Source: Trypanosoma brucei (taxonomy: Eukaryota). From it: a stretch of DNA of 64,000 bases. The notes under the pieces are model-generated. The model did not search any database. It saw only the letters and a program-made list of their open reading frames with translations, and was not told where the DNA came from. The DNA lies in NCBI GenBank assembly GCA_000002445.1, contig CP000070.1, forward strand, positions 224,001-288,000, in the 5' to 3' direction. Below are positions 1 to 61,384 of this stretch, piece after piece. A program made the translations under genes and the position numbers. Within the stretch, counting starts at the first letter, position 1, and each line of letters begins with the position of its first letter.

Positions 1-3000
1 GCCAGTGTCCGCGCATCCTTAAATCCTTCAGAGTAAAACATGATTTCAGCAATAAGAGCGTAATCGGGGATCATCATGCAGATGGGACGAAACAGGGCTT
101 TCAGGTTATCTGGAAGCTCGGTACGACCTGCATAACCAGGGTTCATGGTGATAAAAACACCGAAATTCCTGCTCAGTTTGATCATATGCCCGTCAAAGCT
201 CATGCTTTCTAGGCGTTGCGCAAGAGCACTAGTAATATCTAACATCTGCTGCGCCACCACAGAGAGCACCTCTAGTTCAATACGGTTGAACTCGTCAAAG
301 CACGCCCATGCACCCGCCTGCGCTAACCCAGCAAACATACGAGACATAGTCTTGTAGTTGATACCATCAGAACAGTTAAAAACAACAACTTGTCGGGCCA
401 ACGCTTTCCCCAAGTCCTTCACCGACTCGGTTTTGCCTGTACCCGCAGGTCCCTGGGGAGCGGCTCCAAGATTCATTGCCAGAGCGCTGGTACATGTCAG
501 AAATGCACGATCGGTCAGCGGGGTAATTACAAGACGCGGTTGATTCCCAAGATACTCATAACCATACCACAGATGAGCATCGCAGTGGTGGATTCCAACG
601 CTCATGCCAGATTTCACAGAGTCAGTAGCCTCCCAATAATAACGCAGTTGCTGAGCCCAGGCAAAATCACTGAGAGAAGTCACACTGCTCTCATGAAGAG
701 TATACACGATGTCACGATTGTGCACGTTAAGCACAATTAGTGTACAAACAAGCGTCCGTTGCAACTTAGTTAGGGACCCCTTCACCAAATTGACTGTCTG
801 AAAAATTTGTTGCTGGTAATGTTCGTGATACTCCAGTAATGAGCCTGCCCTTATAGCCTCTTCGACTTCTTGGGTCCACACAACCATATCAACCGCCTGA
901 ATACACTGCGCAGGGTGGTTAAAAAACCAGGTTTCACGTGCCTCTGGGGTATACGCCTCAACTGTCTTACGCATATGCATAAGCAACGAGGCTCTCATCA
1001 TACTCTCGATCTGGCACAACCACTTCTCTACATTGCCAATAGGATACACAACTTTCTCAAATTCAACTTCTTCTCCATCTCCAGACATCATCCCCGAAAT
1101 TTCGCTGTATGTATCCCCCGAAAAAATAAGGGATGCTATCGAATCAAAGCATTTGGTGAGATGCGGTTGCACTGCCTTGGGATTACGCACGTCGGAAAGA
1201 ATTGACAACAGTTCGTCGTTTGAGAGGAAGTAGAACCGAGGAAACGCAGCACGCTTCGTCTCGAGACACTCTTCCAGTTTCTTCTGAATGTAATCAATAT
1301 TCAAATTAGCTTGCTGCAGTTGCTCCAGCACACCGTTCTCGGTGCATATCTGGTAAACGTTCTTGTCGTTATGTGCCTTCATTGTCAGCAGACACAACAA
1401 GGTATCCACCGAGCTGAACTGCATACTTTCTTCAGGAAGCTGGGCTTTGATATCGTCTGAAGAAAAAATAAATTCAAGATACATCCAGTTCTTTTGAAGG
1501 TTAGTCCACTCTTCCATAACATTACCTACGTGTCGAAGGTTGCGAATCCATTCCTCCACACGGTCGCGAACCGGTGCAGCAAATCGTGAAGCCATTATCG
1601 TCTGAAGTTCAACTTGATTATCATCCAGTTGCTGGATTACATCTTCTAGAGCATCCAATATGAAAACACCGTCACGGTTTCTGTAAGGTTTGGTGGTGAA
1701 CGAAATCCCGTTCCATGTCTGTTTAATTTTGTCCAGGTCATTGGATATCTTCCACTCACCGGTTGCTAGCCCGACTTGCTCAGATAGTACCTCCTTGTAT
1801 TCAAGAATATTTAGGTCTTGCAAGTTCCGCAAACTCAAACCTTCGTGATAGCGATTATCCGAACCAGTGGCCTCCCTCAAAACAATATTCCAGTGGCTAT
1901 CAGTCATGTGTTTGTTACCACAATCGTGAATAACGGGCATAATCGCTCTGAGTTCTTGAAGTTCAGTTAAAAGATGCTGCCCCACTTCATCTTCATATTC
2001 CTTTTCCTGGACCTGTCTGTTCAGAGCACCGGTGCGCCTTATGAGTTGGTTGACTTCATCCTCCATGGCAGCTGTGTCCAGTTCTCTAACAGGACTATTA
2101 AACCACATTTCTCTTTGTTTCATAAACGTGTCTAAGAGTGTCCAAGCTTCACGGCGGACAAAAACCAAGCTCCTCATTTCTTTGAGAGTAGACCAGTCGA
2201 TTGGAGGCCGATCAAACAGTTTCGCATATTTGGTCAGCTGCGTTTCACTTGCCTGAATCTCGCTGAGCTTCGTATTAAGTTCCGCTAAGTACTGAATTAT
2301 CGGTTCTACGTTCTCCGTTAAAACAACAAACTCGCTGTTGGTAAGAATTTGCTTGATCGTAACGCACTCGTCTTCGACGTTGCACACGCTGTCTTCCAGC
2401 GTTTGAGTATGAAACGGCAAATTTTCTTCGATAAAGGCTTCGGCATGGAGTCGCGCTTCATCGAAGAGAATCTGAAGGGACATTGCCGTACTGACACTAC
2501 CTAGAGTTCTCTCTCTAAGTTGCTTGTCTTCGTCATCCAAAAACTCCACTTGTTGTCGGTCCATCAAATCGCACAAAGCGTCCGCCTGAGCAACAGCAGC
2601 TTCGGTTTCAGTAGTCTCGCTCACGACCTCCTTGTAATGCGCCACATACTCTGCAAACTGGCTCAGTTGACCCGGGCGTTCATTTAGCACCTGGATCTTC
2701 TGCTTGAAATACGAGTGCAGTGAAGAAATGGCCGTCCTCGTAATTTCCCGAAGTGTTGAATCAATTCCATCACGGACAATCCGCATACGAGGCTCAATTT
2801 CTGTCTTGAGCTTTGCTGCGTTAATCCATAACATATTCCCTACAAATGACGCCATCAGAACGCGTAACGTATCTTGTGCATCCTGGATTTTGTCGTACAA
2901 CTTGAACAGGGTAGAGCACGTTAACGGTCTTTCGCCCGTCTCCTCTTCCCATTGCGCCAATATATCGCTCCATTCCCTCTCCAAGAAATGAATGTGAGGG

Positions 3001-4655
3001 AGTGTAACGGCATACGCCTGCATCTTGGTGTTAGCCTGGGCGTAATCGTCGCCAACCAACTGAAGAATACTAGACTGAAGATAGAGCGTGCGTGCGTCAG
3101 ACTCGAGTTCACCTCCTAGCACCCAAAGAGCAGGTGCCTTGGTGAAGTGACCCTTCAGCCGCTTCTGGGAACACAACCGTGTAACCGAACCAGTAACCTC
3201 GATGCATTCGGTGATAAGCTCCGTGCAAAGAGTACGTATAGCCCTCTCAGGTGGATTAAATAACATCTGATCCTCCGTTGGCTGTAACAAAACCTGAAAA
3301 CCAACTGAACGCAGTTCTTGACTGCTCTGGATATGCAATGTGTTATACAGTGTTTTGATCGCCGAAAGGATTACACGAAACACAGTTTCCGATGTAACAC
3401 AGTCCACCATACGAATTAATTGGTCAATTTGTGAGTACTCTACTATACTGCGTTTCAGCTCACGCATTCTTTGTAACTGTTCTCCCCTGGCATCGTGCAT
3501 CGACTTCATCTTACGTTGTGAGCGAAAACTCCCCGACCCTGTAACAATGGCGTTAGCGAGTAGGTACTGCTCTAACGCCTCTTTTGTGTTTATGTCGGGA
3601 ACGTCTGCCTTGCTCTTCATAACTTCAATCAGTTTCATGACACCAGTCTCAATCTTCTCCATACACGCAACGAATGCAGCCGAAGTTTTTTGGCGCTGCT
3701 TCGCCTGCTGCGTCCGAAAGTCCTCGATAGTATAATCGTGCTTTCCCTGCGCCTCGTACAGCACCAATGGATGTGTTGTAAGGTCGTAGGAAGCGTTAAG
3801 AACTTCCAGAATAGGGGTACTGAAAGTGGATTTAGATATGAGTAAGTTCCTTGAAAGCAGCCGCCTCTTGTTGAGAAAGTCCTTAGCACGTACATTTTTG
3901 TACCACCGGAAAAAGGCTTTGTAGACGAGGTATGTCTTGAAGAAGTGTACTTTTCGAAGGACATCAAAAAGCGATGACTCCCGCATCCACTCAGCTAAAC
4001 TAACAACCTCCGAAGGGTGTCCTGGTCGGACATGGACAACCCCTGTTGCACTCATTATGTAGTGCTCCTTCTGCTCCAATCCACGCTTCATAGGGCTAAC
4101 ACATAAATCATAAGGTCTGAATTCGAGTACATGAGGAGCACGACATAAGTATACATATTTCAAATGGCTGCTCGATCCATTGGCTGCAAAAAAAGTTATA
4201 CAATCTTCAGCTGTTTTAAGTTTGCGGATGACGGCTGCATCGTCCGGAGCTACCGGGGGGACTGAGCTCTTGTTAGGTGGCCGCATTGCCCTTTGTATCA
4301 TACGAAGAATCTCACTGTCCTGCTCGTCTAGATGGGTACGCCAAAAGGGCCGGACCCCCGACACAGATTCAGGTTCCATGTGGTCACCATTTGCACCAGG
4401 ACCATTCAACCCTCTCTCACGGCTAAGGCTACTAGCATCACAAACTTTGTTAGCAACAGGAACACCTCCGTGACGCAAGTTATAACGGAAGTTTTCCGGC
4501 TTTTGAAACTCGTATAGCTGCACAGGATCCAACGTTCGATTAATTTCCTTCTCCACTTGTGCAGCAAGATAGGTTTGTGAGACAGTTTTCCCTCTCTCAG
4601 TCGACTGGTATAAGGTCTCAAGAAATTCAGAACTGCTATCCCTCTTCGACTGCAT
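1..4655 (-). CDS. Dynein heavy chain, 5' portion (N-terminal tail/linker through the AAA1 P-loop). Partial: the ORF continues past the window start.
   Basis: Reverse-complement translation from the ATG at 4655 (in-frame TAG 10 codons upstream) is open to position 1. It contains the canonical dynein AAA1 region ...GPAGTGKTESVKDLGKALARQVVVFNCSDGINYKTMSRMFAGLAQAGAWACFDEFNRIELEVLSVVAQQM...HMIKLSRNFGVFITMNPGYAGRTELPDNLKALFRPICMMIPDYALIAEIMFYSEGF (Walker A GPAGTGKT, Walker B CFDEFNRI). It is absent from the ORF track only because it is open-ended. Confidence 0.85.
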   Translation of the reverse strand, partial: MQSKRDSSSEFLETLYQSTERGKTVSQTYLAAQVEKEINRTLDPVQLYEFQKPENFRYNLRHGGVPVANKVCDASSLSRERGLNGPGANGDHMEPESVSGVRPFWRTHLDEQDSEILRMIQRAMRPPNKSSVPPVAPDDAAVIRKLKTAEDCITFFAANGSSSHLKYVYLCRAPHVLEFRPYDLCVSPMKRGLEQKEHYIMSATGVVHVRPGHPSEVVSLAEWMRESSLFDVLRKVHFFKTYLVYKAFFRWYKNVRAKDFLNKRRLLSRNLLISKSTFSTPILEVLNASYDLTTHPLVLYEAQGKHDYTIEDFRTQQAKQRQKTSAAFVACMEKIETGVMKLIEVMKSKADVPDINTKEALEQYLLANAIVTGSGSFRSQRKMKSMHDARGEQLQRMRELKRSIVEYSQIDQLIRMVDCVTSETVFRVILSAIKTLYNTLHIQSSQELRSVGFQVLLQPTEDQMLFNPPERAIRTLCTELITECIEVTGSVTRLCSQKRLKGHFTKAPALWVLGGELESDARTLYLQSSILQLVGDDYAQANTKMQAYAVTLPHIHFLEREWSDILAQWEEETGERPLTCSTLFKLYDKIQDAQDTLRVLMASFVGNMLWINAAKLKTEIEPRMRIVRDGIDSTLREITRTAISSLHSYFKQKIQVLNERPGQLSQFAEYVAHYKEVVSETTETEAAVAQADALCDLMDRQQVEFLDDEDKQLRERTLGSVSTAMSLQILFDEARLHAEAFIEENLPFHTQTLEDSVCNVEDECVTIKQILTNSEFVVLTENVEPIIQYLAELNTKLSEIQASETQLTKYAKLFDRPPIDWSTLKEMRSLVFVRREAWTLLDTFMKQREMWFNSPVRELDTAAMEDEVNQLIRRTGALNRQVQEKEYEDEVGQHLLTELQELRAIMPVIHDCGNKHMTDSHWNIVLREATGSDNRYHEGLSLRNLQDLNILEYKEVLSEQVGLATGEWKISNDLDKIKQTWNGISFTTKPYRNRDGVFILDALEDVIQQLDDNQVELQTIMASRFAAPVRDRVEEWIRNLRHVGNVMEEWTNLQKNWMYLEFIFSSDDIKAQLPEESMQFSSVDTLLCLLTMKAHNDKNVYQICTENGVLEQLQQANLNIDYIQKKLEECLETKRAAFPRFYFLSNDELLSILSDVRNPKAVQPHLTKCFDSIASLIFSGDTYSEISGMMSGDGEEVEFEKVVYPIGNVEKWLCQIESMMRASLLMHMRKTVEAYTPEARETWFFNHPAQCIQAVDMVVWTQEVEEAIRAGSLLEYHEHYQQQIFQTVNLVKGSLTKLQRTLVCTLIVLNVHNRDIVYTLHESSVTSLSDFAWAQQLRYYWEATDSVKSGMSVGIHHCDAHLWYGYEYLGNQPRLVITPLTDRAFLTCTSALAMNLGAAPQGPAGTGKTESVKDLGKALARQVVVFNCSDGINYKTMSRMFAGLAQAGAWACFDEFNRIELEVLSVVAQQMLDITSALAQRLESMSFDGHMIKLSRNFGVFITMNPGYAGRTELPDNLKALFRPICMMIPDYALIAEIMFYSEGFKDARTL

Positions 4656-7600
4656 TGTTTTTTTTTGTGCTTCTTCCCTTGACTAGGAGTTTTCAGTTTT
4701 GTAAAATTTATATCCGATCAAAATGGTGGAGAAAGTTATACACGAATACGCACATACGACGCAAATAATGCAAAAGATACGATGAATGCGCTAACCGCGG
4801 AAGCAAGATCGGCTCCTCGATCCCATTCGGTGGCACAGAGTCACAGACAAGTTTTCATATGCGTCACGTCTGCGCGCAAATGCATGGGGACGGAGACAGC
4901 GTGTAGTAGAGGCAAATGTGGCACGATACCCAGATGAGTAGATAACCACAATGACTCACAGCAAAATAATAATAACTCAAGTGTCCCGATGGCAAAAACT
5001 ATACAAACACAGTTGCAATGACGGCAGAATCACCAAAAGAGAAAAATCACCGCAAATAGATTGATGTGATGCTATAAATCAAATATCCCCTTTGACAAAG
5101 CGATCCAGAGACCGCGCAGTCCGTACACAACCAGCCGTTTTCCCAACATATTCGTCTAAAAATAGGCAAGTGTGCCCAATGCATCAACACGGTAATACTG
5201 TACCAAAGGTTTGCCGTGCTGACTCCATCCTAGTATCACAAACAGTCCAGAAATGCAGTCCTACGATACTTAAATCCTGGCCTACATTGAAGAAACCTAT
5301 AAGTTCATGGCATCGATGCCAACCTTCAAGTATGTCACGTCAACGTAAAATGTGAGCCCAACCAGAGCTGGAGAGTCGGCTTCATCCACTCAAACCCACC
5401 AAACTTCCCAGAAAAGGTCAAAAAAATATACACTAAATAAGCGAGTAACGAACACAATAGATCGCATGGGACCCGCAGAGCTAAAGCAACGGCCCCCAAC
5501 AAAAAAGAAAAAGACAAATACCCCAAACACGCTGCACGGACCAACACCAAACCACTTTCGCTCATTGAAAACTGGGGGAAGCCTGCGACAACTTAGTTTC
5601 CAGCGCAACTGGGAGAAGTAGAACAATGACACTTACGAAAAGCACGTTCTGGTAGGCTCCACCTAGACCAAAAGGGACGCCGATACGTCACTGCTCTGGT
5701 CGGGTGGAGCAGTCCATCGACAATGTGAGGGAAGGGGAGAGGAAATAGGCAACCGTACTTCTCTAGATCCCCTATTCGACAAACTCGGCACTTTAAATCT
5801 CAACGACTGCCTCAGGTGCAATTATCCATTTACAAATGACATTCCACCCACCTGCCATTATCCAACAGTACCTCAGTTGAAGCAAAAAGAACACAACAAG
5901 CAGGTGATCAAGGCACCCAGGAGACACAGTAGACATGCGGAACCCGCAGCACAACGAGAAAACCACAGCGACAATCCCAGGGACCACAACAACTGGAATC
6001 AAGGATCCTCCACCAACCAGCGGAACATCAGCAAGGGACACTACACACTACTAACCTCCGCAAACCACACTCCTCTCACGAATACACATAGCACAGCGGC
6101 ATCGCCTGACCACGCCAGGCGCCTTCCCATGGTGTTGCAACGCAGCGTCATCTTCCACAGTGAGAAATGTCGCAGCAGGACCCTCCGGGAAAGCCGGAGT
6201 GACGTGGTCGAGGCGGTCACACCTAAAGCGGAGCGGACCGTCATACTCGAAATGTGAAACAGTATCACCGACACCGAGGCCCCTAGCCTGGCACTCAGTA
6301 GAGAAAGTGCCCATGACCCCCACCCCTCTTTTTCAGCGCGGAAGCCAAGAACAGCTGACGTCCCAGCGTCAGAAGAATAAGACGGAGGAATACGCCGCCG
6401 GTAAAGGAGGCAGCTCCTCTTGGAGAACTAGCTATTGAATAGAACGGCACAACCGGGTTTTTTGAGGAAGCGAAAACCGTGGAGTGGAACGGGTCCGTCC
6501 GTTCCAGAATGCCACACCCGTAGCAAGAAACGGGACCCTTGCCTCCCGTTGCTGAAAGGACTGATTTGGCTGAGCGAAGAGGCCCGAACAATTGGTAGTC
6601 GCGAGAAGGGGTACGTTGTGAAAGGAACCATTCGGATTCAAGGAACTACTAACAAACTACAACGCAAGGTCCTCCCTAGATTAGTGCGTGTTAGTGGATA
6701 TGGGGTTGCAACCCCGACAAAAATGGGGGCGTCAAAGCGGTGGTACCTAGTGAATTGATTCGGTACTTTTTTGAACTTTTTGAATTTTCTTCGTGGCCCT
6801 GTGTGAGCCCGCTCGTTTCGCTGAAGCTCTCGACTCCAACCGCAAAGAGTGTTCCACGTTGCTGTTAGGGGGGTTCGTGGTCGATAACCCCTTTGTTGTT
6901 AGTATCGCGTGCCTCCATTCACCTTTTGCTTTCTGTGTTAGAGCCCTCACAGTCGGTAGATGGAGCAGAGAACTCCCTGCAACAGGCTCATTCCAAGAAC
7001 GTCTGCCAGCCATTTCAGCAGCCGTTGCAGCCCTATCTCTAATGCTAAGCATTCCGCTCTGTAACTGCATGAGAGTTCCCCTGCTCCGGTCTTGGGTGCG
7101 CAAATCAGCGTGTTGTTTCTATAGAGCAGGGCAGCTGCTCCGGACTTCTCGCCGAGGGACACGGATGTATCAGCCCACAATTCGTAGTGCTCTCGTCGCT
7201 GTGGCTCCTTCACCCTCCGTGCAAAATGCCGTGCAATCCACTTTTCGGAAGCCTCCCTTTTGACGTCGTCAGGGTCATCAGCGCACACAGGCTTTATCTG
7301 CGTGTGAAATAGCGGTCGGCAGCTGTGGCGGAGTGTCGATGTCTCTAGTGGGTGCTCGCGTGGCTCAATGTGGAGGTGGGGGTAGGACCGCATGATGCGG
7401 GAATGTAGGGCTCTGACTGGGTGTTTGCTGTGGTATACTTCCTCAGCACTGCGGCGCAAACATCCGCCTCGTGACTCACACATCAGCATGAATTTCATGC
7501 TGCGCACAAGAGTGGCCGTCTTGAGTGGCAGGAGGTTTGCTTCCAGCAGAGAGTCCTCTTTGCGCGTCCCATGCGGTATGCCGGCTATGATGCGACTACC

Positions 7601-10600
7601 CTTGTGTTGTGCTGCTGCAAGGAGGTCGCGACTTCGTTCCGAAGCGTCCCAGTACCATACCTCAATGCCATACATGGTGTGTGCCTGTAAGAGGTAAAAG
7701 AACCGCAGAAGCTGGTGTGCTTAGCCCTGCGTGAAAGCAGATATTGCTCCTATTTGAAGTAGCTCAGGTCAATTTTTTCGTACTGTCTGTGCAGCGCGCC
7801 CTACCATTTCAGCTGTGGAATAGTATCATAAAGAGAAACTTTTCAAGTTCTTTCAAGTCCCGCCCACACTCCATCGGCGTTTGGCGTGAGCTGTATTCAT
7901 TTCACAGAATCAAAGGATGTGCTTTTCATCTGCGTTACGTAAACTTCCATTAGGTACTCTCAAGACAATGGTGCCACCATGTCCACTTACCTCCGCAGTG
8001 TGTGTTTGATTGTTTCCTTCTTCGTTTGAGGAAGCAGCAGCGTTAGGTTATGTGCCGCTGCTCGACGCTCAACTGCTTCGTTTCCTGTACTGAGCTCAGC
8101 ATGCCCCATTGCGCCGAAGGCTTTTCACCACTGACAAATACCACAACCATACACGATGTTGGTAAGGCGCGGCTAAGGAATCCTGTTTAGTTTGGAAACC
8201 ATTTTGCTGTGCATAAACTTTGTCCAGTCCCTAACTGTTGTGGTGCGAGCTGGGCTTCAGTTATTCTTTCCCTCAATCTTCATGGAGAGCTCGTGAATGC
8301 CACTAGTTCATTTGTATTTTAATATTTCTTCTTCTTACCATCTTTCTGGATATGTAGAGGAACTCCACACTTCCATGCTGTTGGTGCAATTCCTTTCTGT
8401 GCATTCATATTGAACTGTTAAAGCACCAGTATTGGCACTGTGTGATCGAAGTAACGCAGTCACTCTCCGTGCAAGCGATTGTGGGCCGTCACTGAGGTAT
8501 GAAGTGTTTATTTTAGCGATTTTTCGGGTCCATCACTCATTGTTGGTTGGAATTCGGCGGCCTCCGTTTGTCTCAGCGGCTTTGTGTCTGAGCTGCCATA
8601 TATATCTTCTTATGTGATGCACGTGCTGCAACAAAATGTCGGGCCTTCCGAAAATCTCTGATAGCAGCTTCACCTACTGTGAGTGCCGTAATCATTGGGT
8701 GCTTGGCGATCGCAGCGAATAAGCATTCCTGATGCGCCAGTTGCAGCGGTTCTGTACTTCGTCTTGTGTGGGCGGCACGAAACACTTACGGGTCGCGTAC
8801 GGTCCAGCTACTCTCCCACAATGATGTCCAGTTTCTTCCTATTCGACCAATGGCGACACCCCACGATCTTCCTATGAAGGCCAGTAAGCTAAGGCGTCAA
8901 GTGCTGTGGTGTGACTCTGCTCCCTTAGGGAACACCTTCGTCGGTTCCAAAACTTTCGGCGCAGATCAGGTGTTTTTCAAATTCGTCTCTTCATCATATT
9001 CTAACCACCCCACAGAGTCACCAGGCAGGACTGTGAAGTGTTCTCCATTTGGCTTTGATCCATGAGCCTGTGATAGTGCTTTGACGCTAAAGGTTCAGGA
9101 TATCCGTTTTGTTTCGGCAACCATGTTGAAGAACATATGGTGGTGGCGACCACCTGCCTACTACGATGATTTCGCATGTAACGGTCAATTCCTTGACAGT
9201 GGCATATAAGTGTTGCCCTTCCGTGCTGTCGCGTGTGCACGGTGTATTCGGTAGTATTACAGAACGGAAAATTGTTATTTATGCACCACTTTATAAGGGA
9301 CCAATGCCTGGTGTTCGGTGGGGGTTGCGTGATCTCACGCCAAGGCGCATGCATTAGAATTCGTGTCGACATGTTGCGGGCGCCGACCTGCTTTTTGCTC
9401 AAAGGTTGGATATGGTGAGCATACGACGTCGTAGCAGCGGCAATTGGCATCTTTCTAGTTGGTTGCATTCCGGAGTGCACATGCCCGGTGCATTCAATGA
9501 TGGTACCGGCCGCCTCTGCCATCAGATCTTCCCCAGCGAGTGTGTGTAAGTCGCCGCCGTCACGGTTGTAAGCTATGCTATGACGTTGGCGACCGGAAAT
9601 GCTAAAGTGCCCCGGGTTTCTTTTGTCGTCTTTGCTGTCCTCGGCTGACAGAAGACCATCTTTTCGTAATAGAGGTTTTTGCGGAGTATTGATTTCTTTC
9701 CTTTTGGAACTCTGCGCAGTTCCTCCGCTTTTCGCGTGAGGGTAGGCCTGAGTCGTCCTTCGAATCACAGGACGGCGGCACCTCACTCCGGAAAATATTC
9801 GTGACGGCGCGGTACCGCGTTCGCAGTGACTGGGAAGGAAGAAAAGCGGTGCTCTGGCGCGGCACGGCTGGTCCCTCTGCGTTGCCCTGGCATCTGTGGA
9901 CATTTGAAGACGGTGTTCTGTCGGTCCAGAGCCCTATCGGCTGGCGTCTGCCCCTGAAAATGCGAGGTAAGAGAGTGAGCGGCGCCGCGTTGGATGGGTA
10001 GGAGGGTCGCACCATGGAATTGATGTGTGTGATGGCCTTCCTGCCTTAGCCGATTCCAGTGGAGGTTCTCGGAGGTGATGAGTTTTTACTTTCGAACTGA
10101 CTACATGCCGCAGCATGGGCGTTCATCGACCGCTGGACTCTAGCAGCCGTGGGGCGTGCTGATTTCGGGAGGAGCAACAAGTGCCGAAGCCTCCCCGAAA
10201 CATCCTCAGTTCGGGTCGGACACGGCAGCTGCTCCCCGTTCCGGTTGAGGCGTTGCTGCGCTTTCGAATCGTCGGCGGTTAAGGGATTCTAGTCCCACGT
10301 GAAAGAGACCACTTGTCAATACGATCGCCGCCGGTTTCGGCTAACCATTCTGATTGTGCTTTGCAGTGCGTCACTTGCCACGCTACTGCTTCAGAGCGTG
10401 GCTGCTCCGGAAGGGTTTTTGGCGAGCCCCCTGGCGGTTGTTTTCACGCTGGCGTTAATCGGACATGATCCCCCGTTTGTTGTCTGATAACGGAGGTAGC
10501 GAAAGAGCATGTGGCGTCGTCACATGGGAATAAGGGGAGCGGCGCCAGGCATTTTGCTGTGCAAACCCCTCTTTGTTATACAGTTTGCTGTCTCCTTTCC

Positions 10601-11925
10601 CATTGGGGTGCTGATGAAGTGCCGAAGAATGATCTTGTGAGGTAGGGGCGACTTTACTAGTCGGGGGAGGCGTCTGCTCTATTACTCTGGAGGTGTAACG
10701 CGTAAGTTAGGTGGATGTTGGAGCGTATGCTGGTAGTATTTCAATGTGGTGCAAAATTTTTTGTTTTCCTCCAGCGAAGTTATAAGTGCTCCATGAGCGT
10801 GCGGGTTCTGGGGATGTAGGAATCTGTGTGAACGGATCGTGTTTGGATGGGAGTCGCACATTTTCTCTTCGAGAGAGTGTTGGGAGGTTTGCTCCTTTTA
10901 ATTCCCTTTGTCTGAACAGCAGGAGTTTTCTGATTCTTTGTGGCTGGCCTCTTTTGCTCATCAAGTGTTATTATTATTTTTTAAATTTCATCGCCTACGG
11001 TACGTGGACGGGGAGCTGTGCTGATATCACCGCGCTTCCGTGTTTCGCTTCGTACTTGTTTATTGTTTTGCCGTCTTATCACTCTACGAACCGTACCTCG
11101 TGGATGGTGAGCAGTCTTGTTAGCTGCTTCGTTGCCCGAGGTAAAAGGTACGCGCTGCTTTTGGGTCGAGGAAGTCCCTGCGTTAGGGTGATTCACTCAC
11201 GCTGTGTTGGTCGTGAAGATGCGCTTCCGCTGCATTTCTTGGGGCACACGTGTCTGGAAAAGAAATTCCCCCGACTCACTTGATCGTTTGGGCTCCGCTG
11301 TGGTATGTCGCAACACATAACCACGATTTATCCTTCATAAAATATCTTCGTGTCAAGGAATTGAACTCGAAAACACTAAAGGAGGTGCGGAAAATGCTAA
11401 TATACAGTGCTGTTCCGCTTCGTTTGCTCACGTGCTCGCGTGAAGCGGGCCCATATTGCATGCGTGCCAAAACATGGGTTAAGTTGTCGTGTGTTTCGTC
11501 CTTTCCTCTTATCTTGTGCCCTGTCCCACGCTGTGCGACCTTACATTGTGACTGTTGGTTGGATAAATTGGGTATCGTGATTAAAGGAGTGTACCACTCC
11601 TTTCGTAGGTTTACATATGGGCTACTCTTCGCTTTGATGCTGCCCTTTTTCGCTCTTACTGGGCGGTGATTCCCGTGCACTTAGCACCGAAACAATCGTA
11701 TTTCAACATTTGAGAACTAACTCATAAATATAGCTTTTTTGTCCAAGATCGGTCCTTTATTTTTTAATGTTATACAAACTGTTGATTTATTTAAAATATG
11801 AACGGTCATCCCAGTTATCAGAGCTTTTATGCTTGTGCTCGTTGTTAAATTCAGCTCCACCTTTGTTCCAGTCGCTGAAAGGGTATTTCACTCTTCTTAT
11901 TTTCCTCTTTTGGTTAGTAGTAGCG
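4656..11925. promoter_or_regulatory. Divergent strand-switch region between the minus-strand dynein unit and the plus-strand polycistron. Candidate bidirectional Pol II transcription-initiation zone.
   Basis: The minus-strand gene starts at 4655 and the first convincing plus-strand gene starts at 11926. There are no long, non-repetitive ORFs in between. In trypanosomatids, divergent strand-switch regions are the known polycistron start sites. Confidence 0.6.
6947..7675 (-). mobile_element. Degenerate non-LTR (ingi/L1Tc/DIRE-like) retrotransposon remnant. RT C-terminal 'thumb' plus the start of RNase H. The relic probably extends further on both sides through frameshifts.
   Basis: The 242-aa minus ORF begins MYGIEVWYWDASERSRDLLAAAQHKGSRIIAGIPHGTRKEDSLLEANLLPL. 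This matches the conserved non-LTR RT thumb signature YGsEtWtl...R..L.afEm.clRrIlGI.w.drvtNEevl..agl.pL. Its C-terminus, ...ELWADTSVSLGEKSGAAALLYRNNTLICAPKTGAGELSCSYRAECLALEIGLQRL, matches the RNase H N-terminal motifs (YTDGS... GAG... TNNRAELxAxxxAL). Flanking frames contain stops, so the element is frameshifted. Confidence 0.6.
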
Positions 11926-13158
11926 ATGTCTCGTCGGCGTCCTAATGTGATGTTAACTATCCCTAAGAATACGCTACAAGTCTTTGATATGGGGTTAGAT
12001 TTCCGTTCTTACCTATCCCGCGTGGATGTCAATGGACTACCAGTTTTAGGCAATGTCGTATCCTATGAGGCATCAAAACTGACTGAAGTATTTACTCCGA
12101 CTGTAGGGTTGTTAGTGACGATACTGCACATGCTTGCTCATTGCACCTCAAGTTGCTCCGCCGTAGCTTGGCTGAAAGCCTATGATGCCATCCAAAAGAT
12201 GTATATCGAAAATTCAGAGGAAGAAAACACGGAAGCCGTTCGATACGCTGTGGAGGCTAGAGCGGCTATCAAGGATTATTTGACTGGTGACGCTGTACCC
12301 GGTACAAACCTCCTTTGTGAGAAATTGTTGACTCTTCTCGACCAGCAAAGTGGCATCCATGGTTCTCAAGCTCCATCTCAACGGAAGGTCCCGCGGGAAC
12401 CGAAGGGGGCTTTTTGCAACCTACATCTATCGGACCAAAAGTGCTACCAGGATTTTGCTTGTAATCAGCTTCATTTACAAGAAGTGAAGACGGTGCGTCA
12501 CAGGAAGATTTTTTACATGCGACTTATTGAAGTGCTAAAAGCGGAAAAGCGATCTCGCCAGCAAATCCGCCACCGAATAAAGGACTCAGTTTTCTTTGCC
12601 CGATATGGCAATAAGGTTACCGTTCAATGCCAGGGTAAATGGATTCCATTTTTCAAAACAGTTTATACGGACGGAAGGCTAGAGCAGGCGCTTCGAACTC
12701 AGCATTTCGCTTGTGGTGACAGCGCTTGCGCCGACGAAAATTGTCTGGGAATACATCCACAAGACCGGCGCGTTACCACGTCCAGTAAACTGATGGATCT
12801 TAATAACCCCGATGTAGTACTTCAACAGATAGAGGAAGAAGCGGAGCGACACCTGTCGATGGAGGGGGCATTCAACGATCACGAAGCAGAACATATCTCC
12901 GCAGCCGCAAGTTCATCTTCGATGCCTTCGCCTACATCGGAAATGTGGAGAAATACTGTAAGGGAATATGTGCGGCAAACGGGAATCCCACAGGTGGAGG
13001 CCGATGAGTCGTTACTCAGGACACTGCAAGATGCAAATGTCCTGGCCACACCAACGGCCTCAACAGAGAGCTTAACGCCACTCTTAGACGAACTCGATAT
13101 GCGCACGTTCAGCTCGAGCTCTCCGGTCAGAGAGCATCCCAATGCTGAAATAGGGTGA
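11926..13158 (+). CDS. Hypothetical protein, first gene of the plus-strand polycistron. No recognisable domain.
   Basis: Long ORF (track 11767..13158). The first 53 codons are pyrimidine-tract-derived low complexity. The likely start is MSRRRPNV at 11926, preceded by a polypyrimidine tract and AG dinucleotides. Coding-like, non-repetitive composition. Confidence 0.5.
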   Translation: MSRRRPNVMLTIPKNTLQVFDMGLDFRSYLSRVDVNGLPVLGNVVSYEASKLTEVFTPTVGLLVTILHMLAHCTSSCSAVAWLKAYDAIQKMYIENSEEENTEAVRYAVEARAAIKDYLTGDAVPGTNLLCEKLLTLLDQQSGIHGSQAPSQRKVPREPKGAFCNLHLSDQKCYQDFACNQLHLQEVKTVRHRKIFYMRLIEVLKAEKRSRQQIRHRIKDSVFFARYGNKVTVQCQGKWIPFFKTVYTDGRLEQALRTQHFACGDSACADENCLGIHPQDRRVTTSSKLMDLNNPDVVLQQIEEEAERHLSMEGAFNDHEAEHISAAASSSSMPSPTSEMWRNTVREYVRQTGIPQVEADESLLRTLQDANVLATPTASTESLTPLLDELDMRTFSSSSPVREHPNAEIG

Positions 13159-13818: not shown

Positions 13819-15264
13819 ATGACCGATATGTTGTTTGCTGTTTTATTGACTATATCGTTGTTGGTGCATGTGTCGTTGGCACTGGACCCTACTTATGGAG
13901 CCCAAGACGCGTATCTTGACCATTTTAAGGGGATTAGTTCCAGTGGAGCGTTCCAGTGTCTTACCGGCAGCAAAGTCATAAAGGGTGATCAGATTAATGA
14001 TGATTTTTGTGATTGCCCCGACGGAAGTGATGAGCCAGGGACATCAGCTTGCACAAATCACTTTACCAAAGTTAAGTTTCCTGACGGGTGGAAATTCAGA
14101 TGTCGCAATATTGGTTTTAAGTCAAAGGAAATACCACACAATAGAGTCAACGATGGTTTATGTGACTGTTGTGACGGCTCTGATGAATATGGCGGTATTG
14201 TGCAGTGTGCTAACATTTGTGCGGAGGTGCAGGAGAAAGAGGCGGAGGAACTTATGCTGGAAAGGGAGAAAATGAAGCTTTCTTTAGAGGAAAAGAAGAA
14301 GATGGTTGAGCAGGCCACAGTCAAACGGGAACAAGATAAAGTTGCTTTAAAAGAAGAGAAAGCAGAGCTGGAAGCGGCGGAAATTTCCCGTGAGCGGATG
14401 TCAAGAGACCTTCCGCCGTTGGAAGACCACGAAAAGAAGGAGAAACAACGCTTATCCGAGGAGTTCAAAATTCTTCAAAAACACATCCAGGAAAATGAGG
14501 CGAATGAGGAGGGCACAAAGTTGAAATATAGGGCAGGCTGCACCAAATGGTACACAACAGTGGACTGTGGTACCAAATCAAGCGTAACAGATGAAAAGGG
14601 ATGTGACGAGCTAATTCCAGGTAACGTGTCTGGTTACTGTGAATGTGCTGAAGCAAAAACAGATGCTACAGTGAAATACCAAAAAAATTGTGACCACAAA
14701 CCTCTTCGCTGTTCATTTGTTTGCAAAACGGCGGGAGAGGAAGGGACCTTGTCAAGCAGTGAGGAGCAATACTTCGATACAACCAATGACCCCTCTTATG
14801 AGTTGCCAGGGGCCAAGAATTTACGGGCAAAAATAAAGGACCTTGACGAAAAAATGGACAATCTTCGGTCCTCTATTGCTGCTAAGGAGGCACGGTTGAA
14901 GAGAAACTTGAATACGGAAGACATAATACGGACACTCGAGGATGAATGCTTCACTCTCGACGTTAAAGTATACACTTACAAATTTTGTCCTTTTAAAGAT
15001 GCTCACCAGTACTCCAAAGGAACTGAAATTGGGAATAGCATAGGGAAATGGGTACGTTTCGGTGAGAGTACCTACTCTTTGTGGTCAACCACCGATGACC
15101 ACACACACATGTTGTACGAAGGGGGTGATTGGTGTTGGAATCATGATCAGCGAACCACGGATGTTCGTCTGGTGTGCGGCCCGGAGAACAAGTTGTTGAA
15201 GGCTGAGGAACCGATATCATGCAAATACGCAATGGTGTTCCAAACACCCGCTATATGCGAGTAA
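13819..15264 (+). CDS. Glucosidase II beta subunit (PRKCSH-like ER lectin subunit).
   Basis: N-terminal signal peptide MTDMLFAVLLTISLLVHVSLAL. Two LDLa-like Cys-rich repeats (CDCPDGSDEPGTSAC, DGLCDCCDGSDEY). Central coiled-coil/acidic region. C-terminal MRH domain (YTYKFCPFKDAHQ...GGDWCWN...RTTDVRLVCGPENKLL...CKYAMVFQTPAICE). Confidence 0.8.
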   Translation: MTDMLFAVLLTISLLVHVSLALDPTYGAQDAYLDHFKGISSSGAFQCLTGSKVIKGDQINDDFCDCPDGSDEPGTSACTNHFTKVKFPDGWKFRCRNIGFKSKEIPHNRVNDGLCDCCDGSDEYGGIVQCANICAEVQEKEAEELMLEREKMKLSLEEKKKMVEQATVKREQDKVALKEEKAELEAAEISRERMSRDLPPLEDHEKKEKQRLSEEFKILQKHIQENEANEEGTKLKYRAGCTKWYTTVDCGTKSSVTDEKGCDELIPGNVSGYCECAEAKTDATVKYQKNCDHKPLRCSFVCKTAGEEGTLSSSEEQYFDTTNDPSYELPGAKNLRAKIKDLDEKMDNLRSSIAAKEARLKRNLNTEDIIRTLEDECFTLDVKVYTYKFCPFKDAHQYSKGTEIGNSIGKWVRFGESTYSLWSTTDDHTHMLYEGGDWCWNHDQRTTDVRLVCGPENKLLKAEEPISCKYAMVFQTPAICE

Positions 15265-15477: not shown

Positions 15478-16962
15478 ATGAATCCGAAGCTGTTCTCGAC
15501 GTACGTAATCGACTGTGTCATACTGTTTCTTTTAGTTCTGTTTGCATTTGGATACCAAACGGTTCGAAATCAAGAGCGTGTTGATGCTCAATTTGAGTTA
15601 GCTGCTTCTCTCTTTGGCGCTAAGGACAAGTCTGCTGGAGCTGAGAAGAGCATAAGTTCCGTGAAAGATTTTTTTACAGTTTTCAAAGGTATAATTGATG
15701 CTTATTATCACATACCGGCTGCAGCAACTGGGACATTCATGCACTATACGTATGGGGTGGGCAATTTCACACCGTTGGTCCCTGTTGTTGAAATAACGTT
15801 TCACGACAGACCGCAGAACTCCCTCGCAAAGGTGCCGCTTGTCTTTTCCTTTGATGTTCAAGCAAGCGATGTACTAGGACCGTTCATAAGTCCTCAAAGT
15901 TATTATTACCAGAATGGCTTTTGTGGAGACGGAGTTACTAGCAGGTTGCGTTATATCCTATGCCAAACCTCATCCACACTGGATGTGTTTGACAACGTCG
16001 ACAAGGTTAAACTCTCATTTCAGCTATATTCCATGAGAAGGTCAGATGACGGTAGGGTGCGCCCTGCGGAATGGGACATAGAGGTGATGTTTGGTATGGG
16101 TGGGTACGGCCCTGTTATTACCATGACCACTTCGTTCAGCAGTATCGAGGAGCGTTTCCCGCAGCGTTTTCCCGTCATGATAAGTTGTGCGGTGGCACCT
16201 CTAGTACTGTTGAGCTTTTTGTTTCGCATGGATAGGATCTCGCAGCTTGTAACATACGTGAAAGTGGTGTTAACTACTTGCAGAAGGAGTCAGTGGTACG
16301 GAAGGTTGCGCCCCGATAATTCTGGTTTGAGAGGTCAGAGTTTTCTTCTGCTTGGTGTTTTTTCTGATATAGTTGCGTTGACGTTCAGTATAACGTCACT
16401 TGTGATTCAGTTTACCCCAAAAGTGAGCGGAACGACGGAGCATGCGTTAACAGTCCTACTCGGGTTCGCGGCTTTCATGCGCTCAACACAGTTGATCTCT
16501 GTGCTGAAGCTCTCACCAAGTCTTTGCGTAGTGGTCGATGGTTTTGTTACTGCTAGTGACCAACTTTTCATGTATGTCGTGGCGGTCTTCCCCATTCTGC
16601 TTGGTTATTCAGTGTGCGGTTTCATTGTTTACGGAAGTTACCAGTCTTACTTCAAAACCGTTCCGTATTCAATTGTTACTCTCATCTGTGCGGCGTTCGG
16701 GGATAACCTGATTGATACATTTGTGGACATGGATAGGGGAGCCTACGTTGTTCAAGTGCTCTTCACCCGTATCTTTTTTGGTTCATTTTTGGCGTTTTTT
16801 ATATGTAATGTGCTCAATGTGGCATACAGTATCATTCAGGATTCGTACAATCAAGCTATCCGGATGCACGGTGCGACATCCAGTGGCACCACTGGTGCAA
16901 ATGGCAGTGGTACTCGTTTAACCGAAGAATTGAGGGAAATATTGGGGAAGTTGAGGGGGTAG
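15478..16962 (+). CDS. Polycystin/mucolipin (TRPP/TRPML)-like multi-pass cation channel.
   Basis: N-terminal TM helix (YVIDCVILFLLVLFAFGY), then a ~200-aa loop and 5-6 further hydrophobic helices. Pore-like region ICAAFGDNLIDTF and terminal helix FFICNVLNVAYSIIQDSYNQA resemble the PKD2 filter/S6 (LGD..., LLNMFLAIINDTY). Confidence 0.5.
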   Translation: MNPKLFSTYVIDCVILFLLVLFAFGYQTVRNQERVDAQFELAASLFGAKDKSAGAEKSISSVKDFFTVFKGIIDAYYHIPAAATGTFMHYTYGVGNFTPLVPVVEITFHDRPQNSLAKVPLVFSFDVQASDVLGPFISPQSYYYQNGFCGDGVTSRLRYILCQTSSTLDVFDNVDKVKLSFQLYSMRRSDDGRVRPAEWDIEVMFGMGGYGPVITMTTSFSSIEERFPQRFPVMISCAVAPLVLLSFLFRMDRISQLVTYVKVVLTTCRRSQWYGRLRPDNSGLRGQSFLLLGVFSDIVALTFSITSLVIQFTPKVSGTTEHALTVLLGFAAFMRSTQLISVLKLSPSLCVVVDGFVTASDQLFMYVVAVFPILLGYSVCGFIVYGSYQSYFKTVPYSIVTLICAAFGDNLIDTFVDMDRGAYVVQVLFTRIFFGSFLAFFICNVLNVAYSIIQDSYNQAIRMHGATSSGTTGANGSGTRLTEELREILGKLRG

Positions 16963-20268: not shown

Positions 20269-22019
20269 GGTGAAAGTACTGGTTCCCTGAGAGCGATAGC
20301 AATACAATCACCCTTCTTCACAATTCCGCTGTGATCTATATTATTTGTTTGATGTATTGGTCATTTCGGCGGTCTTGAGGCTAGTATGGAAAAGGAAGCA
20401 CGGAGATACAGGTGTCTTGGTCGTTGCAACTGGTTTAGTGCACAGAGGAGGATGGAAAGATATAATTAAAGGGTGACCGCTGGCGGTTGCGAGTTGGTCG
20501 AGAAGAGTTACGACCTGATGAAAGTGACGATTTGGGAACGGTAGGAGTGAAGAGGAGGGCCGCCCACAAGGCCGTTATTTCCACTATGTAATAATTTTAA
20601 AATGGTGGGGAAAATAAGGCAAGAAGGAAAAAAAAAATAAGAATAAGAAAGGCACGTACAGTTGAAGATTTTGATTTGTTGCCCTAACTCGTTCCCGCTT
20701 GTTAGTGTAAACCTTCCCCTTCGCGCTAGACTAAAGGGTTAAAACCCTGAGGTGAAGGACTGAAGGCTCTCCTTGTATATGTATTGGTATACTAATTTGA
20801 GTTGTCAGCACATATACTTATATACTTGAATATATGCGCATGCACGTGTGCGTGTATGTGTGTGGGTTTACACGACTGCTAGGTGGGCGCGATGGAGATA
20901 TACTTATGTTATCATGTGTGCTGTGGATGTTCGTGTTTTCAAATACACGTTGATTTGTTTGTGTTTGTGCTTGCGTTTTTTTTATGCCCTTAAATTTCAT
21001 CTCTTCCGTTTTAATATGTGCGTTTGATATGAGTTAGTTGCTGTTCACGCAGGGGAGTACAGGGCTACAAAAGGCTCACTGATGAAGGTAGAGTGACCTT
21101 CCCTGTTCTTTTCGGGAAAACGTGTGAGAGAAATGCAAAGGAAGAAGAGAAAATGATAATGATTGTAATAACAAATTGGTGAGATAGAATAAAAAATTTA
21201 AGTGAAAATGAAGGAGTGTGGTGGATACAGTACGTTTGTGTTTGTGTGTAGTGGAGTTGTTTTGGAGTCGGTGTGCTGAAAGGAATGAGAGGTGGAAGCA
21301 ATAAAAGTGAGAGAAAAGTATGTTATACGGAGCGGAGAAGAGAGAGAAAGAAGGGGGGAGGGACGGGGGAATTCACTGAGGGGGCGCGTGTGATGCTGCA
21401 TCATTTCCAAAAAAGGGTTAAATGGTTCCGTGTATCAGCTTGGTTTCCCCTGAGGAGAAGCTGTGTTGTACTCCACAAAGTGGGTAGAACTATCACTATG
21501 CATTTTCAGATGGCTTTTAACACACACACGCATAGTTCTTTGAATGGGTTCGGCTGTTCATAACACGGTTGTGCAAATACTTGTTTATCCTTGCGCATGC
21601 ATACTCTGTTTCTATGGGTCCTCTTTTGTGCTTCAGTTTGCCTAACAATGCAGTTTACCCTTCTGCGTATTTGGGTGTGCGTGCGTCTTCTCTGGTGCCG
21701 TTACCCTCATTGTTTTCTGTATCGGTTGCACTTCATTTTTTGCATCCGTTCTCCCCTTGTTTTCCTTTCGCTTTTATGCCTTTTTTGTTTTGGGGGACCC
21801 CAGGTGTGCATGACGATGCGTTGTTCTTTTTTTCCCCCCCGTTAGTCATTCATTTCTCCCCGTTTTCGTTGATTTTTTCCCTATCTACAATGCACGTGTA
21901 CATATGTCTGCAGTGTGCGGTATCATGTATGACATGTTAACCAATGACGAGGTAAAGATTTGACGTCTGGGAACCAACACGCATCCCCTCTCACGCTCCC
22001 GTATTCGTCCCCCCTTTAC

Positions 22020-22080
22020 TTTCTGTGTTCTTTTTCTTTTCTTTTTTCTTTTCTTTTTTTCTTTTCTGTTTTTTTTTTTA
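22020..22080. repeat. T-rich (TTTTC/TTTCT)n polypyrimidine tract.
   Basis: ttctttttcttttcttttttcttttctttttttcttttctgttttttttttt. Confidence 0.8.
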
Positions 22081-22542
22081 CTAATAGTTTATCTAACTTC
22101 ACTTTCTGCCACGACCACTCCCCGTCTCTTCCCGCTTGTCACTGCAGGGGAGAGTCGAGGGGGTGTTGCGACGCTCGTTTGGGACGAAGCGATTATTCAC
22201 GTAATGTGCCTCTCCTCCCTTTTGTCACAACTGATCCCGTCGGCAAGAGTGGCTTTTTTTTAAAAAAAATTCCCCTTCTTTTTTTTTCCCATTCATTACT
22301 TCTTTTCCCTCATATTCTGTGTTTTTCTTCCCCCTTTCTTCGGTAACACAGTTTATATTGTTTTGTAAGGCACCAGGCGTAACGTACGTGCCGTTTAATA
22401 TGAGAAGATATATAGTAACAATAATAATGATGGTTTTCTGTTTCTTCTTTTTTTCATTTGTGAGCCGGAAAAAAAAACCTACTATCCCACCTGCAATTTT
22501 TTCCCCTTTATATTTATTAATATTGTTAGTATTCTTCTGACT

Positions 22543-22615
22543 ACCATTATTATTATTATTATTACTATCACTATCACTATTGATTTTATTGTTATTGTTA
22601 TTCTTGTCATTTGGA
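22543..22615. repeat. (ATT)n / (ATC)n trinucleotide microsatellite.
   Basis: accattattattattattattactatcactatcactattgattttattgttattgttatt. Confidence 0.8.
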
Positions 22616-26705: not shown

Positions 26706-26740
26706 CGCGCACACGCGCACATACACACACACACACACTG

Positions 26741-26774
<34 letters not shown>

Positions 26775-26778
26775 TACA
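26706..26778. repeat. (CA)n followed by (TA)n microsatellite immediately upstream of the NMD3 start codon.
   Basis: cgcgcacacgcgcacatacacacacacacactgacacacacacatatatatatatatatatatatat. Confidence 0.85.
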
Positions 26779-58844: not shown

Positions 58845-58849
58845 ATGTC

Positions 58850-58884
<35 letters not shown>
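58845..58884. repeat. (TA)n microsatellite.
   Basis: catacatatatatatatatatatatatatatattta. Confidence 0.85.
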
Positions 58885-58890
<6 letters not shown>

Positions 58891-61258: not shown

Positions 61259-61283
61259 TTATATATATATATATATATATATG
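61259..61283. repeat. (TA)n microsatellite.
   Basis: tatatatatatatatatatatatatg. Confidence 0.85.
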
Positions 61284-61384
61284 TGATGTGCGTGTATTGA
61301 GAAAAGTGGGTTAAGTAGGGAGGTGGAAAAGGGTTCGTTAATCAAATTAGGTTAAACCTGAGAAAATAAAAAGAACGAAAATTT

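What the first reader, a model, noticed from the sequence alone, without database searches (positions are those of the whole stretch)
4656..11925. A 7.3 kb divergent strand-switch region that is GC-rich and holds a retroelement relic: candidate polycistron start site and possibly a centromere
The dynein gene starts at 4655 going leftward. The first plus-strand gene starts at 11926. From there to 63.6 kb every convincing gene is on the plus strand. In trypanosomatids such divergent strand-switch regions are the polycistron initiation sites, marked epigenetically rather than by sequence. This one is long (typical ones are 1-3 kb) and visibly GC-rich between ~6.2 and 10.7 kb. It contains a degenerate non-LTR retrotransposon. 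In T. cruzi the functionally mapped centromeres are exactly this kind of GC-rich strand-switch domain built from degenerate retroelements. That makes this a candidate centromeric or insulator domain, but sequence alone cannot prove it.
Basis: partly seen in the sequence, partly recalled or inferred. Interest (0 to 1): 0.55.

Follow-up and report, generated by a model that had tools for sequence, protein, structure and literature searches.

The report
Known T. brucei transcription start region
This is the already catalogued point on Trypanosoma brucei chromosome 7 where two gene clusters are transcribed in opposite directions; a dead retrotransposon fragment has enlarged it, and it is not the centromere, which lies about 1.7 Mb away.

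Summary
The window is T. brucei TREU927 chromosome 7, v4 coordinates 224,001-288,000. The finding is the divergent strand-switch region between dynein heavy chain Tb927.7.920 (minus strand) and ZC3H17 Tb927.7.930 (plus strand).

The observation largely holds:
- The gene boundaries at 4655 and 11926 are correct.
- A degenerate ingi/L1Tc-type retroelement (DIRE) lies on the minus strand at about 7007-9880.
- GC content is only modestly raised: 0.52 over 6.2-10.7 kb, against 0.505 for coding DNA and 0.42 for intergenic DNA.

The "polycistron start" reading is right but already published. Kolev 2010 lists both flanking transcription units as "Divergent". Tiengwe 2012 cites twin H4K10ac peaks with central ORC1/CDC6 binding at about 0.25 Mb on chromosome 7. 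G+T strand skew flips sharply at 6676, as expected for GT-rich coding-strand promoters.

The centromere reading fails:
- The chromosome 7 centromere maps between Tb927.7.6860 and Tb927.7.6870, at about 1.93-1.96 Mb, and carries AT-rich repeat arrays.
- This region has no tandem repeats.
- The orthologous region in T. cruzi is 533 bp with no retroelement.

A length of 7.3 kb is normal for T. brucei, where such regions are 5-10 kb. The finding is ordinary and already known.

The parts
3..4655 (-). 5' part of dynein heavy chain gene Tb927.7.920, the first gene of the leftward polycistron
   Evidence: Open frame 3-4655. Pfam DHC_N2 (E 3.8e-121) and AAA_6. Gene identity from Kolev Table S14 and PMC3332058.
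4656..6676 (-). Leftward half of the strand-switch region. GT-rich on the minus (leftward coding) strand. Presumed leftward transcription start region and dynein 5' UTR.
   Evidence: Keto skew on the plus strand is -0.189 overall. The six lowest 500-bp values in the whole window all fall here. No similarity to retroelement proteins or to the HIT-like gene that sits here in other trypanosomes.
6600..6750 (.). Strand-composition switch point, taken as the centre of divergence
   Evidence: The cumulative G+T skew minimum of the whole window is at 6676. AT skew changes sign between 6501 and 6751.
6677..11925 (+). Rightward half of the strand-switch region, GT-rich on the plus strand throughout
   Evidence: Keto skew is +0.05 to +0.26 in every 500-bp window.
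7007..9880 (-). DIRE: a degenerate ingi/L1Tc-related non-LTR retroelement relic. It holds endonuclease, reverse-transcriptase and the first half of RNase H. It is frameshifted and lacks a recognisable 5' signature and the 3' third.
   Evidence: 84% identity to an annotated 'reverse transcriptase' and 49% to a T. grayi 'Tbingi protein'; collinear tblastx chain with a chromosome 6 DIRE. DNA homology extends up to 9880; full-length ingi-clade proteins align at 8495-8238 and 7807-6980; no Pfam match in any minus-strand frame; no Pr77 signature and no C-terminal homology.
9004..9903 (-). 300-aa pseudo-ORF inside the DIRE, over the endonuclease region. Annotated 'hypothetical protein' in T. equiperdum.
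   Evidence: Exact match to TEOVI_000091600 and to a close relative, DPX39_070020900. Lies within the DIRE homology chain.
6950..7675 (-). 242-aa pseudo-ORF inside the DIRE, over the RT C-terminal to RNase H region
7001..7693 (-). Sharply bounded patch 92-97% identical to three DIRE copies on chromosome 6
9501..10500 (.). GC maximum of the window (0.57-0.60). It straddles the 5' end of the DIRE and about 0.6 kb of unassigned sequence.
10251..11250 (+). Strongest GT-rich tract on the plus strand upstream of the first plus-strand gene. Candidate rightward promoter element.
   Evidence: Keto skew 0.20-0.26, among the highest in the window. Compared with the GT-rich promoters of Wedel 2017.
11890..11918 (+). 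Polypyrimidine tract, AG acceptor at 11916-11917 and published spliced-leader addition site at 11918
   Evidence: Sequence. Kolev 2010 supplement gives the transcript 5' end at 235,918.
11926..13158 (+). ZC3H17 (Tb927.7.930), the first gene of the rightward polycistron

Best explanation
The region is the divergent strand-switch region, a pair of RNA polymerase II transcription start regions, between Tb927.7.920 and Tb927.7.930. It lies on T. brucei chromosome 7 at about 228.7-235.9 kb in v4 coordinates.

Transcription leaves in both directions from around window position 6.7 kb. It is driven by dispersed GT-rich sequence on each coding strand within chromatin bearing H2A.Z and H4K10ac. The first plus-strand mRNA is trans-spliced at 11918.

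The boundary is ancestral to trypanosomatids. In the T. brucei lineage it grew from about 0.5-2 kb to 7.3 kb. One cause was the insertion of an ingi/L1Tc-type retroelement, which has since decayed into a 2.9-kb DIRE lying antisense to rightward transcription. The growth was accompanied by loss of a HIT-like gene that sits next to the dynein gene in other trypanosomes.

The modest GC rise is the coding-like base composition of that relic and its immediate flanks. It is not a centromeric signature.

Shown here: the gene arrangement, the DIRE, the strand skew and the synteny. Taken from the literature: transcription start evidence, H4K10ac and ORC1/CDC6 binding. Inferred: the exact initiation sites and the passive role of the DIRE.
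For: Identity of the locus:
- Exact protein matches to T. brucei TREU927 and T. equiperdum.
- Three independent coordinate matches give window = Tb927_07_v4 minus 224,000. These are the old Tb927.7.930 start at 235,767, the spliced-leader site at 235,918, and the poly(A) sites of Tb927.7.930 and Tb927.7.940.

Divergent Pol II units:
- Both units are listed in Kolev 2010 Table S14. That paper states that 5'-triphosphate RNA was enriched at every divergent unit.
- Tiengwe 2012 names the chromosome 7 region at about 0.25 Mb for twin H4K10ac peaks with central ORC1/CDC6 binding. By Table S14 it is the only divergent region between about 0.04 and 0.7 Mb on chromosome 7.

Strand skew:
- The skew flips at 6676 and the extreme values in the window flank it. 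This matches GT-rich coding-strand promoters.

Synteny:
- The dynein(-)|ZC3H17(+) arrangement is conserved in T. cruzi (533 bp), T. rangeli (553 bp), T. melophagium (1006 bp) and L. orientalis (1899 bp). None of these has ingi-clade homology.

DIRE:
- Demonstrated.
- DIRE copies elsewhere have the same GC content, 0.51-0.53.

Size:
- 5-10 kb is typical in T. brucei.
Against: - I could not map ChIP-seq or 5'-triphosphate reads onto the sequence. Initiation positions inside the 7.3 kb are inferred from composition only.
- The '0.25 Mbp' in Tiengwe 2012 is an approximate figure reading and not a coordinate.
- About 0.9 kb of GC-rich DNA on each side of the recognisable DIRE (6.0-7.0 kb and 9.9-10.75 kb) has no assigned origin.
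- Part of the plus-strand GT excess over 7-9.9 kb is intrinsic to an antisense DIRE. The DIRE sense strand has a skew of about -0.06.
Confidence: 0.9

Rival explanations
1. The region is a centromere, or a second or latent centromere, of the T. cruzi type: a GC-rich strand-switch domain built from degenerate retroelements.
For: It lies between divergent gene clusters and contains a DIRE, as all mapped T. brucei centromeric regions do. It holds the highest local GC value of the window.
Against: - Topoisomerase-II cleavage maps to a single site per chromosome. On chromosome 7 that site lies between Tb927.7.6860 and 6870 and has a 29-bp, 75% AT repeat array. The array was later sized at 100 kb or more. 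It sits at about 1.93-1.96 Mb, against 0.23 Mb here.
- There is no tandem array in 4.6-11.9 kb or anywhere else in the window.
- Only about 40% of the region is recognisable retroelement, and mean GC is 0.50.
- The T. cruzi orthologue is a 533-bp strand-switch region with no retroelement.
Confidence: 0.02
2. The DIRE relic is itself functional. It might supply a Pr77-type internal Pol II promoter, act as an insulator or spacer between the two promoters, or produce antisense RNA or siRNA.
For: - The first 77 bp of L1Tc act as a Pol II promoter and are conserved in DIREs.
- Strand-switch regions correlate with non-LTR retroelement sites.
- The relic is retained and collinear in T. b. equiperdum.
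Against: - No Pr77-like sequence is detectable in the window, although the same search finds it in the chromosome 6 DIREs.
- The same paper reports that the 5' ends of T. brucei ingi/RIME showed no promoter activity.
- The element points leftward from within the rightward half.
- It is riddled with frameshifts and stops.
- Other species manage the same boundary without it.
- Divergence from T. b. equiperdum shows no special constraint, at 1-10 differences per kb.
Confidence: 0.05
3. As well as being a transcription start, the region is an active early-firing replication origin.
For: ORC1/CDC6 binds centrally in divergent strand-switch regions, and the chromosome 7 region at about 0.25 Mb is named as an example. 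All 42 mapped origins sit at transcription-unit boundaries.
Against: About 80% of ORC1/CDC6 site groups do not coincide with active origins. I could not read the chromosome 7 replication profile, so there is no locus-specific evidence of firing.
Confidence: 0.2

Closest known systems
Divergent strand-switch regions / Pol II transcription start regions of T. brucei (Siegel 2009; Kolev 2010; Wedel 2017)
   Same: Two polycistrons diverge here. It has GT-rich coding strands, a 5-10 kb size, twin H4K10ac peaks and central ORC1/CDC6 binding reported for this locus. It is listed by name in Kolev 2010 Table S14.
   Different: Nothing essential differs. It carries a DIRE relic, which many such regions have but not all.
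T. brucei centromeric regions (Obado 2007; Echeverry 2012)
   Same: It lies between directional gene clusters and contains a DIRE.
   Different: It lacks the AT-rich tandem repeat array. It is about 1.7 Mb from the mapped chromosome 7 site, and there is one centromere per chromosome.
T. cruzi centromeres: GC-rich strand-switch domains of degenerate retroelements (Obado 2005/2007; Bellini 2026)
   Same: It is a strand-switch location holding a degenerate ingi/L1Tc-clade element, with local GC above the intergenic background.
   Different: It is in a different species. It holds 2.9 kb of relic, against 11-16 kb domains made predominantly of VIPER/SIRE/L1Tc. Mean GC is only about 0.50-0.52. The T. 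cruzi orthologue of this locus is a 533-bp retroelement-free strand-switch region.
DIRE (degenerate ingi/L1Tc-related elements; Bringaud and colleagues)
   Same: It shows endonuclease-RT-RNase H homology to ingi-clade ORFs, has many frameshifts and stops, and has coding-like GC.
   Different: It lacks a detectable 79-bp 5' signature and the 3' third. It contains a roughly 700-bp patch that is about 95% identical to the chromosome 6 copies.

Membership tests
T. brucei divergent strand-switch region / Pol II transcription start region | Two gene clusters transcribed away from each other | tested here: met
   Dynein on the minus strand up to 4655. ZC3H17 and all later genes are on the plus strand.
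T. brucei divergent strand-switch region / Pol II transcription start region | Experimental evidence of initiation (5'-triphosphate RNA) for both flanking units | tested here: met
   Checked by look-up, not by mapping reads. Kolev 2010 Table S14 lists both units as 'Divergent'. The main text says enrichment was seen at every divergent unit.
T. brucei divergent strand-switch region / Pol II transcription start region | G+T excess on each coding strand, switching sign within the region | tested here: met
   The cumulative keto-skew minimum is at 6676, with the extreme values of the window on either side. The criterion comes from Wedel 2017.
T. brucei divergent strand-switch region / Pol II transcription start region | H2A.Z / H2B.V / H4K10ac enrichment | not testable with these tools
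   Literature statement only. Twin H4K10ac peaks are reported at about 0.25 Mb on chromosome 7.
T. brucei centromere | Array of AT-rich tandem repeats (29-30 bp or about 147 bp units) | tested here: not met
   Tandem Repeats Finder finds no array in 4.6-11.9 kb and none of this kind anywhere in the window. The repeat finder reports only one chance 21-nt pair.
T. brucei centromere | Coincides with the single topoisomerase-II cleavage site of the chromosome | tested here: not met
   The chromosome 7 site lies between Tb927.7.6860 and 6870, at about 1.93-1.96 Mb. This locus is at 0.229-0.236 Mb.
T. brucei centromere | [quoted passage not shown] | tested here: met
   DIRE at 7007-9880. This feature is not specific to centromeres.
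T. brucei centromere | Kinetochore protein (KKT) binding | not testable with these tools
   No ChIP data are accessible.
T. cruzi-type centromere | GC-rich domain of 10 kb or more, composed predominantly of degenerate retroelements | tested here: not met
   2.9 kb of the 7.27 kb is recognisable retroelement. GC is 0.50 overall and 0.52 in the core.
T. cruzi-type centromere | Synteny with a T. cruzi centromeric domain | tested here: not met
   The T. cruzi orthologous region is 533 bp with GC 0.456 and no ingi-clade hit.
DIRE | Homology to the ingi/L1Tc endonuclease-RT-RNase H polyprotein | tested here: met
DIRE | Coding capacity destroyed by frameshifts and stops | tested here: met
   Homology is spread over three frames. 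There are dozens of stops per frame. No Pfam domain is recovered.
DIRE | Conserved 77-79-bp 5' signature (Pr77) | tested here: not met
   There is no alignment above chance in the window. The same query finds the signature at L004 8131-8162 and 19849-19883. The relic is 5'-truncated or decayed there.

The most novel reading that the evidence does not exclude
The GC-rich spacer containing the DIRE, which lies between the two oppositely directed start regions, is not inert. On this reading it would be the landing site for ORC1/CDC6, or a boundary that keeps the two H4K10ac/H2A.Z domains apart. Retroelement relics would then have been co-opted to organise replication or transcription boundaries at some T. 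brucei strand-switch regions.
Probability: 0.06. Interest if true: 0.4.

Novelty: already known. Interest (0 to 1): 0.08.

Why it matters
It matters little beyond annotation. The locus is a textbook T. brucei divergent transcription start region that has been in published tables since 2010. The useful outcome is negative: a DIRE plus a mild GC rise at a strand-switch region is not a centromere signature in T. brucei.

Minor points of value:
- The region shows how an ancestral boundary of about 0.5 kb was inflated in the African trypanosome lineage by a retroelement insertion, accompanied by loss of a gene.
- Two "hypothetical proteins" annotated in T. equiperdum genomes are retroelement debris.

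Tried and rejected
- Rfam at gathering thresholds and ARAGORN over the whole window found no RNA gene or tRNA. The region is therefore not a Pol III-associated boundary.
- Tandem and dispersed repeat searches found nothing in the region.
- Pfam scans of the listed ORFs and of all three minus-strand frames of 5900-10900 found no domain. The relic is too decayed for profile recognition.
- A Pr77 signature search by blastn-short and Smith-Waterman gave only chance matches in the window.
- tblastn with the C-terminal thirds and N-termini of full-length ingi-clade proteins against 4656-7100 and 9700-11925 gave nothing significant. The GC-rich flanks of the DIRE remain unassigned.
- tblastn of the T. 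cruzi HIT-like gene against the window found no remnant.
- A G-quadruplex motif scan found none in the region.
- The T. congolense orthologue has no contig on record. The T. vivax contig ends 2.67 kb upstream of ZC3H17, and that stretch has no dynein, HIT or DIRE homology. The age of the insertion within Salivaria is therefore unresolved.
- Cordon-Obras 2022, on sequence-specific Pol II promoters, is not held in the library. Its motif could not be tested.
Full report
**Identity of the window.**
- Proteins encoded at 13819-15264 and 15478-16962 are identical to T. brucei TREU927 and T. equiperdum entries on 2.2-Mb chromosome 7 records.
- The first plus-strand gene is ZC3H17, which is Tb927.7.930 (Kramer 2010 supplement).
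- The minus-strand gene is the dynein heavy chain Tb927.7.920.
- Kolev 2010 supplementary tables give Tb927.7.930 as annotated 235,767-237,158, with its transcript 5' end at 235,918. They place poly(A) sites at about 237,598-237,681 for Tb927.7.930 and at about 239,285 for Tb927.7.940.
- These correspond to window 11767, 11918, a stop at 13158 and a stop at 15264. So window coordinate equals Tb927_07_v4 coordinate minus 224,000.
- An AG at 11916-11917, preceded by a polypyrimidine tract, sits exactly at the predicted acceptor.

**The observation.**
- The dynein frame ends at 4655 and the true ZC3H17 start is 11926.
- All long ORFs to 63.6 kb are on the plus strand.
- GC content is only mildly raised. 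It is 0.499 for the region and 0.522 for 6201-10700, against 0.505 for coding and 0.424 for intergenic DNA in the same window.
- The rise forms two humps, and the window's top 500-bp value (0.596) is at 9751-10250.

**The retroelement.**
- The ORF at 6950-7675(-) is 84% identical to an annotated reverse transcriptase on chromosome 6 of T. b. equiperdum. It is 49% identical to a T. grayi "Tbingi protein".
- A collinear, frame-shifting tblastx chain links window 9800->7006 on the minus strand to a chromosome 6 DIRE, including its RVT_1 region.
- DNA homology reaches 9880, at the start of the endonuclease domain.
- Full-length ingi-clade proteins retrieved align at 8495-8238 (RT) and at 7807-6980 (RT C-terminus to RNase H).
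- Nothing is recognisable beyond those limits. The Pr77 5' signature is absent and Pfam sees no domain.
- This is a roughly 2.9-kb DIRE relic. Its GC of 0.51 equals that of other DIREs, 0.51-0.53. That accounts for most of the GC rise.

**Transcription start.**
- Kolev 2010 Table S14 lists Tb927.7.920->7.310 (-) and Tb927.7.930->7.1930 (+) as "Divergent" Pol II units. The paper reports 5'-triphosphate RNA enrichment at every divergent unit.
- Tiengwe 2012 names the chromosome 7 divergent region at about 0.25 Mb as showing two H4K10ac sites with ORC1/CDC6 between them. Table S14 shows it is the only divergent region in that part of the chromosome.
- In the sequence, G+T skew has its window-wide cumulative minimum at 6676.
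- 4751-6500 holds the six most AC-rich 500-bp windows on the plus strand, which means the minus strand is GT-rich there. 10251-11250 is among the most GT-rich stretches of the window.
- This is the pattern Wedel 2017 showed to drive directional initiation and H2A.Z deposition.
- The 7.3-kb length is within the 5-10 kb quoted for T. brucei.

**Centromere.**
- Obado 2007 maps a single topoisomerase-II site per chromosome. Each site has a DIRE or ingi element plus an AT-rich repeat array. On chromosome 7 it lies between Tb927.7.6860 and 6870, with a 29-bp unit of 75% AT.
- Echeverry 2012 sizes those arrays at 100 kb or more.
- That position is about 1.93-1.96 Mb, roughly 1.7 Mb from this locus.
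- The window has no such array.

**Synteny.**
- The dynein(-)|ZC3H17(+) divergence is conserved in four other species. The distance between the divergent genes is 533 bp in T. cruzi, 553 bp in T. rangeli, 1006 bp in T. melophagium and 1899 bp in L. orientalis. None shows ingi-clade homology.
- The skew minimum falls in or next to each of these short regions.
- The three non-salivarian trypanosomes carry a 381-383-aa HIT/DcpS_C-like gene between the dynein gene and the switch. It is absent from the T. brucei window. No salivarian or Leishmania protein appears among its best 120 homologues.
- The T. brucei region is therefore an ancestral boundary enlarged by a DIRE insertion, with loss of that gene alongside.
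- It is collinear in T. b. equiperdum at 98.75% identity over 4001-12500, with only a few small indels across the first 19.9 kb.

**Verdict.** The transcription-start interpretation is correct but already published. The centromere interpretation is refuted by mapping, by the absence of repeats and by synteny.

Noticed in passing
window 7001-7693; L004 10430-11071, 14439-15079, 17488-18129: A sharply bounded patch of about 700 bp in the DIRE is 92-97% identical to three chromosome 6 DIRE copies. The adjoining DIRE sequence is only weakly similar. This suggests ectopic gene conversion or a nested younger fragment.
   Followed up: partly
L008 8322-9467, L011 8302-9447, L009 7843-8994 (all minus strand); window 4656-6676: T. 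cruzi, T. rangeli and T. melophagium have a conserved HIT/DcpS_C-like gene of about 381 aa between the dynein gene and the strand switch. It is missing at this position in T. brucei and in L. orientalis. No salivarian trypanosome or Leishmania protein appears among its 120 best homologues, so it was probably lost.
   Followed up: partly
window 9004-9903(-) and 6950-7675(-): These ORFs are called as genes in T. b. equiperdum. The first is named a 'hypothetical protein' there and in T. equiperdum OVI (DPX39_070020900, TEOVI_000091600). Both are frames left open by chance inside the DIRE relic.
   Followed up: yes
window 11767-11925: The older annotation started Tb927.7.930 at window 11767, giving 463 aa and 52.4 kDa. 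The spliced-leader site at 11918 and the 408-410-aa orthologues show the real start is 11926.
   Followed up: yes
L004 8725-13200 versus 19836-15358 (T. b. equiperdum chromosome 6, about 844-866 kb): A 4.5-kb inverted duplication of DIRE sequence at 99% identity, arranged head to head. Pr77 signatures are detectable at 8131-8162 and 19849-19883.
   Followed up: no
L001/L007 (T. equiperdum OVI contig CZPT02001196.1), start = window 7616: The T. equiperdum OVI contig breaks inside the highly repeated DIRE patch. This is presumably an assembly break caused by the repeat.
   Followed up: no
window 40480-41103 and 52785-53376 (+): By the coordinate offset, Kolev 2010 'new transcripts' Tb7.NT.4 and Tb7.NT.5 fall inside the window. 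None falls inside the strand-switch region.
   Followed up: no
window 20269-26778 and 58374-61390: Two unusually long AT-rich intergenic stretches (GC 0.415 and 0.353) lie within the plus-strand polycistron. They contain T-rich and TTA or AT microsatellites.
   Followed up: no
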